Virus record (IMG/VR): IMGVR_UViG_3300045988_088615
Location: 1-38,959 of that record
DNA from: a virus
Reading direction: 5' to 3' (one strand)
Length of the DNA stretch: 38,959 nt
This document shows positions 18,032 to 18,986 of the stretch, piece by piece. Within the stretch, counting starts at the first letter, position 1. The number at the start of each line of letters is the position of its first letter. The position numbers and the translations under genes were made by a program. The notes beneath the pieces were generated by a model. The model did no database searches. It was not told the origin of the DNA and saw nothing but the letters and a program-made list of their open reading frames with translations.

Positions 18032-18986
18032 ATGCTCCGGTGGGCTGGTCGGACCCACCGGGCAACAGGAAAGGAAAGTGAAAACTGGCGTCTGACATAG
18101 GAGGCAGGTGGAAACCTCTTCCGCCAACTTCATTTAAGCATATTTCATCAAGCGAATACAATAGGTTTCAGTTATTTTCGTAATGTTCTACATAAAATCC
18201 CCCGCCCCCTTTTTCCGCCACCCCCCCCAGAGGGCACACCAACACTGCCCCAGACACTGCCACGCCGGTTCTCGGAAAGGGGAGAGGGGATGTGTGTATA
18301 TCGCCCTATACCACGAGGAAGAGACACCCCCCCTCTTTTTCCGCTACCCCATAACCCCCTACCATCCCGGCTCTACCTCTGACCCCCTGACCCCCCAGCC
18401 GGTGAAGCCCCGGCCCTGTCTCATGGCATCAGCCTCCCAGCCGGAGCCGTAACCGGAATAGACCCGACCGGGAGAGAAACTGCACAGAAACGACACAGCA
18501 GCAGCCGAAGCCCAGCAGCCGCAACGAAAATATTTAACGACCCCTTAAATCTCACCGGGAAAGGGAATTGCCCCCCCCCATCAGCCGCCGCCATCCACCA
18601 GCCCACCGCCCCATTCACGGTATACCTTGCAATAGCTTCGAATACCTTGCAAATGCTCTGTTTTGCTCACGTTTCCTCGTGTTTCCTCGCTCTCTCGCGT
18701 TTTTTATTCGCCGTGTCTCCCTCTTTCGTTACTCTCCCAGTAGAAGCAAGTATATATATCTATACCCAGAGAATATATATATCTCTTTTTGGGGAGTGTG
18801 CTAAGTATTAGACGCTAATACTAAGCATCTAACGCTTATTAGACGCTTGTAACACTCTCACTCTCCTATTCTCTCCCCCTATAGTCCCCCTCCCCTTCCC
18901 CCTCTCTCCCTCTCTCGCTGCTGCCGCCCCGCCCCACACAAAGAGAAAAGCGCCGGGGGTGTTATCCCTCGACGCTCTCGCTCTCG
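18032..18986. repeat. 0.95-kb non-coding, plus-strand C-rich, repeat-dense region; candidate origin, packaging or late-control region
   Basis: C8 (18221-18228), C7 (18327-18333) and C9 (18571-18579). 16-mer CTTTTTCCGC(C/T)ACCCC at 18209 and 18335. ATACCTTGCAA x2 (18622, 18643). GTTTCCTCG x2 (18671, 18681). (TA)n at 18751-18759 and 18773-18782. TATTAGACGCT x2 (18806, 18837). C-tract cluster at 18875-18910. Confidence 0.8.

What the first reader, a model, noticed from the sequence alone, without database searches (positions are those of the whole stretch)
18032..18986. 0.95-kb strand-asymmetric, repeat-dense non-coding region between the late and early arms
- In a genome otherwise packed gene-to-gene, about 950 bp carry no credible ORF. 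The three track ORFs here are Pro/Gly-rich composition artefacts.
- The plus strand is strongly C-rich, with C7-C9 homopolymers.
- A C-tract cluster at 18875-18910 (C5-N6-C5-N1-C4-N2-C5-N5-C3) fits a G-quadruplex motif on the minus strand and an i-motif on the plus strand.
- Short direct repeats: CTTTTTCCGC(C/T)ACCCC x2, ATACCTTGCAA x2, GTTTCCTCG x2, TATTAGACGCT x2 plus a degenerate third copy.
- Two (TA)4-5 unwinding-type elements are the most AT-rich spots in a GC-rich genome.
- The region sits directly upstream of the tRNA and the late operon.
- Candidate roles: replication origin, pac site, late-promoter/activator platform, or a structured non-coding RNA.
Basis: seen in the sequence. Interest (0 to 1): 0.65.

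Follow-up and report, generated by a model that had tools for sequence, protein, structure and literature searches.

The report
Conserved late-operon control region
The 0.95-kb gap is real non-coding DNA in front of this gut phage's packaging and structural genes. It carries two copies of a 17-base box kept in the same place and orientation in about a hundred related uncultivated phages. The boxes are most likely the switch-on signals (promoters) for the late genes, not an RNA gene or a replication origin.

Summary
The sequence features are real. The region 18032-18986 has stops in all six frames, is strongly C-rich on the + strand, and holds 11 of the genome's 54 C5+ runs. It lies between the terminator of a small RHH gene and a tRNA plus the probable small-terminase gene, which head a ~24-kb minus-strand late operon.

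Only some of the listed repeats matter. CTTTTTCCGC(C/T)ACCCC x2 is the reverse complement of a box, GGGGT(A/G)GCGGAAAAA(G/C). Its relatives' form was found as an exact 16-mer in 119 IMG/VR stretches. In 86 of 87 loci holding structural or terminase homologues, those genes all lie downstream and co-directional.

The first box is followed at about 22 nt by TATAGG/TATATA. A second box usually follows 73-136 nt later, with a -35/-10-like core in some lineages. Neither module nor the whole region shows a conserved RNA fold. No Rfam family matches, and the GC-skew minimum is elsewhere (28.7 kb).

The TATTAGACGCT and GTTTCCTCG repeats are recent local insertions. The G-quadruplex motif is conserved only in the closest clade.

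Best reading: tandem activator-type late promoters, preceded by a clade-specific protein-binding platform that may include pac. The main rival is a packaging (pac) site. This is a new variant of a known kind, of moderate interest.

The parts
18939..18975 (-). Intrinsic terminator of the RHH gene (18987-19184): hairpin 18950-18975, then T-run 18939-18949
   Evidence: Read from sequence, coordinates. Mean identity to the window is 94% across 42 relatives. A weak ctRNA-like terminator hit overlaps it.
18871..18935 (-). Array of G4-G5 runs separated by A/T- or purine-rich spacers (block 1). It includes the canonical G4 motif 18875-18910 and ACTATAGGGGGAG.
   Evidence: Identity is 76% in the close clade. 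A G4 motif is present in 38/43 close relatives. Distant lineages keep G5/C5 arrays, in L078, L082 and L095 on the opposite strand as CCCCCCTATAATCCCCCC.
18800..18853 (.). Lineage-specific insertion carrying the TATTAGACGCT repeats and a 13-nt palindrome
   Evidence: Repeats D15 and I3. The columns are 80% gaps in relatives and identity is 27%.
18750..18785 (.). AT-rich patch with two (TA)4-5 tracts
   Evidence: It is the 4th most AT-rich 40-nt window. Identity is 67% but the AT-rich character is kept.
18685..18709 (-). GAATAAAAAACGCGAGAGAGCGAGG box (block 2)
   Evidence: Identity is 89-100% in the close clade. AAAAAACGCG recurs in distant lineages of the same sub-clade.
18622..18689 (-). Short phased direct repeats: CGAGGAAAC x2 (18671-18689, 10-nt period) and TTGCAAGGTAT x2 (18622-18652, 20-nt period)
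   Evidence: The first duplication is present in about 30% of relatives. The second pair is 77% conserved.
18570..18621 (-). Lineage-specific G-rich insertion containing the G9/C9 run and one arm of the 12-nt long-range inverted repeat
   Evidence: Identity is 27% and the insertion is absent from about 75% of relatives. The long-range helix I2 is therefore not conserved.
18482..18550 (-). Block 3: palindrome ATTTAA-N7-TTAAAT (18532-18550) and tandem CTGTGTC-N4-CTGTGC (18482-18498, 11-nt period)
   Evidence: Identity is 90% in the close clade. The block is kept in lineages whose small terminase is only 33-54% identical; in L100 and L130 both repeat copies read CTGCGT instead of CTGTGT. It is found only where the window-type small-terminase gene follows the boxes.
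18288..18352 (-). Module A: box GGGGTAGCGGAAAAAG (18335-18350), a G7 run, then TATAGG at +24 nt and GCGATATACACACATCC (18288-18310). Proposed late promoter 1.
   Evidence: The architecture is shared by 45 non-redundant lineages, with box-to-TATA spacing at a mode of 22 nt. There is no consensus RNA fold.
18166..18228 (-). Module B: G8 run plus box GGGGTGGCGGAAAAAG (18209-18224), GGGGCGGGGG, then ATTTTATGTAGAACATTACGAAAATAAC (18171-18198). Proposed late promoter 2.
   Evidence: This is the most conserved part of the region, 95%. A second box is found in 28/45 lineages; its consensus was not used as a search seed.
18032..18165 (-). Conserved leader with two hairpins: GGCGGAA..TTCCACC (18107-18125) and CCGGTGGGT-loop-GCCCACCGG (18037-18061), the latter ending 5 nt before the tRNA
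   Evidence: Identity is 89%. The first hairpin shows a G-C to A-T exchange (23 vs 10 sequences). The second has an invariant stem and a variable loop.
17954..18031 (-). tRNA gene with an 8-nt anticodon loop, first gene after the boxes
17404..17925 (-). Probable small terminase (173 aa), first protein gene of the late operon
   Evidence: 11 of 23 aligned homologues match Pfam GP3_package (best E 2e-11); the window protein itself scores only E 0.16. In distant lineages the homologue sits directly before the boxes and the large terminase. The fold search was uninformative.

Best explanation
The region is cis-acting control DNA at the head of the late (packaging, morphogenesis, lysis) operon. Its core is two tandem promoter modules on the minus strand.

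- **Shared box:** each module starts with a 17-nt box, GGGGT(A/G)(G/C)CGGAAAAA(G/C), followed by a G-rich stretch. I infer the box is bound by a still unidentified factor common to all these phages or their hosts.
- **Module A (18288-18352):** the box ends 22-24 nt before a TATAGG/TATATA -10-like element with no -35. This is the geometry of a class II activator site centred near -42.
- **Module B (18166-18228):** in several lineages the box lies about 13-16 nt upstream of a weak -35/-10-like core, a class I or UP-like position. In the window itself that core is poorly defined.
- **Transcript path:** transcripts would run through a conserved leader into the tRNA, the small-terminase gene and the rest of the ~24-kb operon.
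- **Upstream 600 nt:** the G-run array, A6CGCG box, palindrome and phased short repeats form a sub-clade-specific protein-binding platform. It may carry regulator sites and/or the terminase recognition site.

Shown: conservation, position, orientation, fixed spacings and absence of a conserved RNA fold. Inferred: promoter activity and activator binding.
For: **Position**
- The region lies between an intrinsic terminator and the first late genes.

**Conservation pattern in 42 close relatives**
- Module B 95%, leader 89%, module A 86%, against 84% at third codon positions of the adjacent gene.
- The other segments range from 27% (the two insertions) to about 89% (A6CGCG box, block 3).

**Spread of the box**
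- The exact 16-mer of the box occurs in 119 IMG/VR stretches.
- 98 of those loci contain homologues of window proteins.
- In 86 of 87 loci with terminase or structural homologues, all of them lie downstream and co-directional.
- This holds whether the next gene is the small terminase, the large terminase, the portal or the scaffold. The boxes therefore mark the operon start rather than one gene.

**Fixed geometry**
- A TATA-type hexamer lies 21-23 nt after the box in 21 of the 31 lineages that have one (45 examined), with a mode of 22 nt.
- Second boxes were not used as seeds, yet give the same consensus. In several lineages they are followed by TTGAAA-N16-17-TATTTT-like cores.
- Box-to-box spacing varies freely (73-136 nt), as expected for independent promoters.

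**DNA-level element**
- There is no consensus RNA structure for the module (SCI 0).

**Other support**
- The tRNA gene sits about 140 nt behind module B and has no other promoter candidate.
- The general layout (regulator-like small gene, terminator, repeats, promoter, terS) parallels Ltr-controlled late promoters (PMC3753634).
Against: - No transcription data exist.
- The consensus scan finds no sigma-70-type promoter inside the region.
- In the window itself the -35/-10-like core of module B is poorly defined.
- No activator was identified. No RinA, ArpU, sigma-like or Ltr-like gene was detected.
- The neighbouring RHH and J-domain genes went undetected upstream of the boxes in L154, although the near-identical L207 module has both, so neither seems required for the boxes.
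- In the distant lineages the small-terminase gene lies upstream of the boxes. It would then be outside the promoter's operon, which is unusual.
- Only 5 of 41 lineages have a recognisable terminator in the 350 nt before box A.
- The boxes occur at one site per genome, which fits a pac site equally well.
Confidence: 0.5

Rival explanations
1. The boxes and/or the upstream platform form the packaging initiation (pac) site of a headful phage. The small terminase would bind the repeated elements, and the large terminase would cut nearby to start the packaging series in the direction of the late genes.
For: - The boxes are always next to the small-terminase gene. They lie 170-335 nt after it in distant lineages and 0.4-1.5 kb before it in the window clade.
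- The large terminase is of the Terminase_6N/Terminase_3 type typical of headful packaging.
- The assembly is circular and related contigs start at many positions, as expected for permuted genomes.
- The element is unique in the genome and directional.
- Blocks 1-3 co-occur strictly with the window-type small terminase.
- At least 7 of 55 related contigs end inside this 1-kb region (about 1.4 expected), and three carry fused sequencing adaptor.
- Terminases and virion proteins were the only phage proteins detected in most box-bearing lineages.
Against: - The 17-nt box is identical across lineages whose small-terminase N-terminal (DNA-binding) parts are barely alignable. pac sites normally change with the small terminase.
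- Each box has its own fixed-distance TATA-like or -35/-10-like partner, and the box-to-box distance is not constrained. This fits promoters better than a wrapping site.
- The contig ends fall at different coordinates, mostly beside G-runs (18407, 18313, 18240, 18198, about 18886). They are more simply explained by coverage loss at homopolymers and by strain variation.
Confidence: 0.25
2. The region encodes a large structured non-coding RNA, or a long structured leader, transcribed on the minus strand next to the tRNA, in the manner of ROOL or GOLLD RNAs.
For: - The size, the purine/G-rich sense strand and the adjacency to a tRNA in a phage resemble large phage-borne RNAs.
- The consensus fold energy (-120 kcal/mol) is lower than in column shuffles (-60 to -84).
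- Two small hairpins in the leader are conserved, one with a compensatory exchange.
Against: - No Rfam family matches at E up to 10 in the window, and only tRNAs match in 12 homologous loci.
- SCI is 0.0-0.6 in 120-nt windows and 0.40 full length.
- There are 14 compensatory pairs, against 11-21 in shuffled controls.
- The 12-nt long-range inverted repeat lies in an insertion missing from 75% of relatives.
- Distant lineages keep linear motifs with fixed spacing but no common fold (SCI 0).
Confidence: 0.05
3. The region is a theta-type replication origin, with an AT-rich unwinding element flanked by iteron-like repeats. It might be served by the neighbouring J-domain protein.
For: - The (TA)n patch and short direct repeats at 10-, 11- and 20-nt periods are present.
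- A J-domain protein with an HPD motif is encoded 0.6 kb away.
- No obvious initiator gene is found in the replication module.
Against: - The cumulative GC skew shows no extremum here. The minimum is at 28706, beside the helicase-loader gene, where an AT-rich intergenic stretch with a tandem repeat lies.
- The repeats are two-copy and several are not conserved.
- Blocks 1-3 are absent from many lineages that keep the J-domain gene.
- The region is 7-10 kb from the replication genes.
Confidence: 0.07
4. The G-run cluster acts through G-quadruplex or i-motif formation as the functional element, for example a transcriptional or packaging switch.
For: - A canonical motif lies at 18875-18910.
- It is kept in 38 of 43 close relatives.
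Against: - Four other such motifs lie in coding DNA of the same genome.
- In more distant lineages the arrays fail the canonical rule or lie on the opposite strand. What is conserved is an orientation-independent array of G/C runs, which fits duplex recognition or DNA bending.
Confidence: 0.05

Closest known systems
Ltr-controlled late (terS) promoters of Gram-positive temperate phages (RinA, ArpU, LtrA-C; PMC3753634, PMC3152322)
   Same: - The order is a small regulator-like gene, repeats distal to it, a terminator, and then a promoter.
- That promoter heads the operon for packaging, morphogenesis and lysis genes.
- The promoter depends on upstream repeated recognition sequences rather than a good -35.
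   Different: - No Ltr-family or sigma-region-4-like gene was detected. The upstream gene is an RHH protein.
- The intergenic region is about 5-10 times longer.
- The recognition box is the same across many lineages, instead of changing with each activator.
- In distant lineages the boxes lie after, not before, the small-terminase gene.
SPP1-type pac region (pacL-pacC-pacR with overlapping late promoters; SPP1 genome revisited in PMC6316719, listed but not read; details from my own knowledge)
   Same: - It is non-coding DNA next to the small-terminase gene of a headful phage.
- It contains repeated boxes and bendable A/T-G/C patterns.
- Promoter and packaging signals share one region.
   Different: - SPP1 pac is about 0.27 kb and overlaps the 5' end of the small-terminase gene. 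Here the region is 0.95 kb, and a tRNA separates it from the gene.
- No terminus data exist for this phage.
Activator-dependent late promoters with a conserved upstream site and no -35 (P2 Ogr sites, Mu C-dependent promoters; textbook knowledge)
   Same: - A conserved site lies at a fixed distance upstream of a -10-like element.
- The same site is shared by a whole phage group.
   Different: - Those phages have several such promoters per genome and a known, universally present activator gene.
- Here there is one tandem pair per genome and no identified activator.

Membership tests
Ltr-type late promoter region | Gene for a small basic Ltr activator (RinA, ArpU, DUF1492 or sigma70_r4-like) immediately upstream | tested here: not met
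   Pfam, PHROGs and NCBIfam scans of the neighbouring and end-of-early-cluster ORFs give no such family. The upstream gene gives only weak ribbon-helix-helix-type hits (HicB/TacA antitoxin families, below Pfam's cut-off).
Ltr-type late promoter region | Terminator between the upstream gene and the late promoter | tested here: met
   Hairpin 18950-18975 plus T-run, 94% conserved.
Ltr-type late promoter region | Direct repeats required for activator binding upstream of the terS promoter | tested here: inconclusive
   Two conserved boxes and G-run arrays are present. Binding was not tested.
Ltr-type late promoter region | Promoter activity that drives terS, morphogenesis and lysis genes | not testable with these tools
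   Only position and orientation are shown.
pac site of a headful phage | Adjacent to or inside the small-terminase gene, with a headful-type large terminase | tested here: met
pac site of a headful phage | Defined start of the packaging series (DNA ends) at the site | tested here: inconclusive
   Contig ends are enriched in the region but scattered, and they lie next to G-runs. The adaptor fusions suggest coverage gaps.
pac site of a headful phage | Sequence co-varies with the small-terminase DNA-binding domain | tested here: not met
   This applies to the boxes, where the same 16-mer occurs with very different small-terminase N-termini. Blocks 1-3 do track the small-terminase type.
Large structured ncRNA (ROOL, GOLLD and similar) | Match to a curated covariance model | tested here: not met
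Large structured ncRNA (ROOL, GOLLD and similar) | Conserved secondary structure supported by covariation | tested here: not met
Theta-type origin (iterons plus AT-rich unwinding element) | Three or more conserved phased iterons beside an AT-rich element | tested here: not met
   Only two-copy repeats are present and several are lineage-specific. The AT-rich patch is only moderately conserved.
Theta-type origin (iterons plus AT-rich unwinding element) | GC-skew extremum and/or adjacency to replication genes | tested here: not met
   The minimum is at 28706 and the replication genes lie at 26-29 kb.
G-quadruplex-forming motif | G3+N1-7 x4 pattern | tested here: met
   Present at 18875-18910 on the minus strand and in 38/43 close relatives, but not in most distant lineages.
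G-quadruplex-forming motif | Quadruplex actually forms | not testable with these tools
   Needs biophysical assays.

The most novel reading that the evidence does not exclude
The 17-nt box with its fixed-distance partners may be a previously undescribed, clade-wide late signal. It would be read by a factor that all these phages share.

- Terminases and virion proteins were the only phage proteins detected in most box-bearing lineages.
- The element would then couple the start of late transcription with packaging initiation at one site.
- The variable G5-G9 homopolymers lie between the box and the TATA element. They could tune or phase-vary late expression by changing the spacing.
Probability: 0.15. 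Interest if true: 0.7.

Novelty: new variant of a known kind. Interest (0 to 1): 0.4.

Why it matters
These phages are abundant, uncultivated temperate podovirus-like phages of gut Clostridia. One related contig was binned with a Dysosmobacter MAG. Almost nothing is known about their gene regulation.

A short, invariant and easily searched box marks the head of the late operon. It gives three practical things:
- a landmark for annotating late operons and genome orientation in metagenomic phage contigs;
- a defined bait for finding the unknown late regulator, or for testing terminase binding;
- candidate strong, phage-inducible promoter parts for hosts that are hard to engineer.

The work also warns that the G/C homopolymers here are a recurrent break point for short-read assemblies of this phage group.

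Tried and rejected
- **Rfam scans.** I ran gathering thresholds and E up to 10 on the window, and gathering thresholds on 12 homologous loci. Only tRNAs matched, plus one abiF motif in a relative.
- **Long-range helix 18038-18049 / 18597-18608.** This 12-nt perfect inverted repeat looked like the closing stem of a 570-nt RNA next to the tRNA. I rejected it because the distal arm lies in an insertion absent from about 75% of relatives.
- **RNAalifold.** I folded 120-nt windows, three sub-blocks, the full 820 columns and the cross-lineage module. None showed covariation above controls.
- **Sigma-70 promoter at 18131-18160 (TTGTAT-N15-TGC-TTAAAT).** I read this by eye. I rejected it because the A at -11 is G in all 42 relatives.
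- **GenBank phage searches.** The region and the module gave only tRNA or chance hits. The closest cultured phages share only about 38% major-capsid identity.
- **RHH protein as reader of the CTGTGT repeats.** RHH beta-strand sequences vary freely while the repeats stay the same, so I rejected this link.
- **Blocks 1-3 as a decayed small-terminase gene.** tblastn with 12 small-terminase sequences found nothing in the blocks (best E 0.15, apart from an E 0.01 hit in an unrelated insertion).
- **Extra box copies elsewhere.** An nhmmer profile found none in the window or in any held locus.
- **Small-terminase confirmation.** The PDB sequence search and an AlphaFold model plus Foldseek gave no significant match.
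- **Activator gene.** I compared ORFs upstream of the boxes across 18 lineages. The only shared families were the small terminase and RHH.
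Full report
**Setting**

The window is a complete, circularly assembled phage genome of about 38.9 kb with a 55-nt terminal overlap.
- Minus-strand genes from 17925 downward encode a probable small terminase, the major head protein, the large terminase, portal, tail fibre, holin and endolysin.
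- An integrase lies at 21999-23081, and recombination/replication genes lie at 26-30 kb on the + strand.
- To the right of the finding lies a 65-aa ribbon-helix-helix-like gene (18987-19184, minus). It is followed by a divergent promoter pair with three operator-like repeats, and then by a 51-aa ORF and a J-domain protein on the + strand.
- The region therefore separates a small accessory module from the head of the late operon. It does not separate 'late' from 'early' arms.

**Observation**

- All six frames are closed.
- The + strand is C-rich, and C5+ runs are about nine-fold enriched.
- The stated repeats, the (TA)n tracts and the G4-type motif are all present.
- A tRNA gene (17954-18031, minus) follows directly.

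**Close relatives**

The small-terminase protein retrieved 55 IMG/VR loci. From these, 43 distinct RHH-to-terS spacers (the window's included) were aligned.
- The region is alignable throughout but is a mosaic.
- Module B is 95% identical to the window, the RHH terminator 94%, block 3 and the A6CGCG box 89-90%, the leader 89% and module A 86%.
- For comparison, the whole small-terminase gene is 92% identical and its third codon positions 84%.
- Two segments (18800-18853 and 18570-18621) are insertions found in a minority of relatives.
- The TATTAGACGCT repeats, the C9 run and one arm of a tempting 12-nt long-range inverted repeat lie in those insertions.

**RNA hypothesis**

- No Rfam family other than tRNA matches the window or 12 homologous loci.
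- Sliding-window consensus folds give SCI below 0.6.
- Sub-block folds show mostly invariant or one-sided changes.
- The full-length consensus fold has 14 compensatory pairs, against 11-21 in column-shuffled controls.
- Two small hairpins in the leader are conserved. They are compatible with leader or processing structures rather than a large RNA.

**Distant relatives and the box**

The J-domain protein retrieved more diverged phages.
- Lineages with small terminases only 33-54% identical keep an RHH - 0.85-1.25 kb non-coding spacer - small-terminase layout.
- BLAST no longer aligns these spacers, but they retain an ordered set of motifs:
  - a G5/C5-run array;
  - AAAAAACGCG;
  - ATTTAA-N7-TTAAAT followed by tandem CTGTGTC-N4-CTGTGT;
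  - two copies of GGGGT(A/G)(G/C)CGGAAAAA(G/C).
- Searched as the exact 16-mer GGGGTAGCGGAAAAAC, it occurs in 119 IMG/VR stretches.
- 98 of those loci carry homologues of window proteins.
- In 86 of 87 loci with structural or terminase homologues, all of them lie downstream and co-directional. The RHH gene is upstream and co-directional in 53 of 54, and the J-domain gene is upstream and divergent in 56 of 56.
- The 21 loci without homologues are mostly coding-sequence matches that look like chance, although at least one short locus (L210) carries the module.

**Architecture of the modules**

In 45 non-redundant module sequences:
- The box is followed by a G-rich stretch and often by TCTCGC.
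- 31 have a TATA-type hexamer (TATAGG, TATATA, TATAGA, TATAGT) 16-28 nt after the box, 21 of them at 21-23 nt with a mode of 22. ATAT and CACACATCC-like sequence often follow.
- 28 have a second box 73-316 nt downstream. Its consensus was not used as a seed, and it is again GGGGT(A/G)GCGGAAAAA plus a G-rich stretch.
- In several lineages the second box is followed by TTGAAA-N16-17-TATTTT-like cores.
- Across 41 diverse lineages the module has no consensus RNA structure on either strand.
- The element is unique in the window and in every held locus.
- No GenBank phage has it.

**Position relative to the terminase genes**

- In the window clade the order is RHH - blocks 1-3 - boxes - tRNA - small terminase ... 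large terminase.
- In more distant lineages (large terminase 43-57% identical) it is RHH - small terminase - 170-335 nt - boxes - large terminase, or portal and scaffold.
- The boxes therefore always mark the start of the structural cluster and always adjoin the small-terminase gene, on either side.
- Blocks 1-3 occur only where the window-type small-terminase gene follows the boxes.
- They are not a recognisable relic of a small-terminase gene.

**Interpretation**

I take the boxes to be tandem, activator-type late promoters, for these reasons:
- strictly linear conservation;
- fixed distances to -10-like or -35/-10-like elements;
- unconstrained box-to-box spacing;
- constant orientation into the late genes;
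- the tRNA placed just behind module B.

Module A has class II geometry and module B class I or UP-like geometry. This parallels Ltr-controlled terS promoters (PMC3753634), but no Ltr-like activator was found.

The chief rival is a pac site. In its favour:
- the boxes are adjacent to the small-terminase gene;
- the large terminase is of a headful type;
- there is one site per genome;
- terminases and virion proteins were the only phage proteins detected in most box-bearing lineages;
- the distant-lineage layout would leave the small-terminase gene outside the proposed operon;
- terminators before box A are rare (5 of 41).

Against it, the box is invariant while the small-terminase DNA-binding parts diverge strongly.

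The two readings can be combined: boxes as promoters and blocks 1-3 as the terminase or regulator platform.

**Origin and G4 readings**

- The GC-skew minimum lies at 28.7 kb, next to the helicase-loader gene, in an AT-rich intergenic stretch with its own tandem repeat.
- The canonical G4 motif is kept in 38 of 43 close relatives. It is lost or lies on the other strand in distant lineages. Its conserved property is an orientation-independent G/C-run array.

**Assembly caveat**

- At least seven of 55 related contigs end inside this 1-kb region, against about 1.4 expected.
- Three of them carry sequencing adaptor fused at the end.
- The ends fall at different coordinates, mostly beside G-runs.
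- This points to coverage loss and strain variation rather than a defined terminus, but it cannot exclude imprecise pac ends.

**Verdict**

The finding is a real, functional, non-coding control region. Its core is a newly defined and widely conserved box pair at the head of the late operon. The kind of element (late promoter and/or packaging signal upstream of terminase) is known. The specific motif, its breadth and the long multi-block platform are not described in the sources searched.

Noticed in passing
window 17954-18031 (-): The tRNA scores 51.9 bits with the Rfam tRNA model, but ARAGORN assigns no anticodon. The anticodon loop has 8 nt (CUUCGUGA) on a stem with only three Watson-Crick pairs. 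At least 10 related contigs carry the same unusual gene (ARAGORN reports the same anticodon loop; 97-100% identical). Other relatives have a normal tRNA-Asn(GTT), about 82% identical, at the same position. It could be a quadruplet-decoding or frameshift-suppressor tRNA, or a defective one.
   Followed up: partly
window 19185-19404: Two divergent promoters: a perfect TTGACA-18-TATAAT at 19314-19343 (+) and CTGACT-17-TATAAT at 19237-19209 (-). Three copies of AGTC(C/A)GCCT(G/T)A(T/C)A lie at 19232, 19258 and 19329 and look like operators of a small genetic switch.
   Followed up: partly
window 19606-20109 (+): A 167-aa J-domain protein with an intact HPD motif and an uncharacterised C-terminal domain. 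It is conserved (42-99%) and always divergent from the late operon in 56 box-bearing loci. It went undetected in L154, whose module sequence nearly matches that of L207, which has it.
   Followed up: partly
window 28144-28367: An intergenic stretch between the SSB and helicase-loader genes. It has AT-rich spots and a tandem AAGAAGCTATT x2 (28312-28334). The cumulative GC-skew minimum of the genome is at 28706. This is a better origin candidate than the finding.
   Followed up: partly
L007 about 3628-3968, L027 and L019 (between tRNA and small-terminase gene): An insertion of at least ~340 nt (longer in L027) in some relatives. It contains GC-rich hairpin-like sequence and has no Rfam match.
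   Followed up: no
L075 1533-1569 (-): An abiF RNA motif (Rfam RF03085, 41.9 bits, above the gathering score) lies between the boxes and the tRNA in one relative.
   Followed up: no
L004, L022 and L036 contig ends (about window 18407 and 18198): Illumina or Nextera adaptor sequence is fused to phage sequence at the ends of public IMG/VR contigs. In L004 and L036 the junction lies near G-runs of this region.
   Followed up: partly
window 35354-38776 (-) and 2100-4103 (-): Two large late proteins (1140 and 667 aa) have no PHROG match, and the 1140-aa one also has no Pfam match. No tail-tube or tape-measure gene was seen among the ORFs scanned, which suggests a podovirus-like virion.
   Followed up: no
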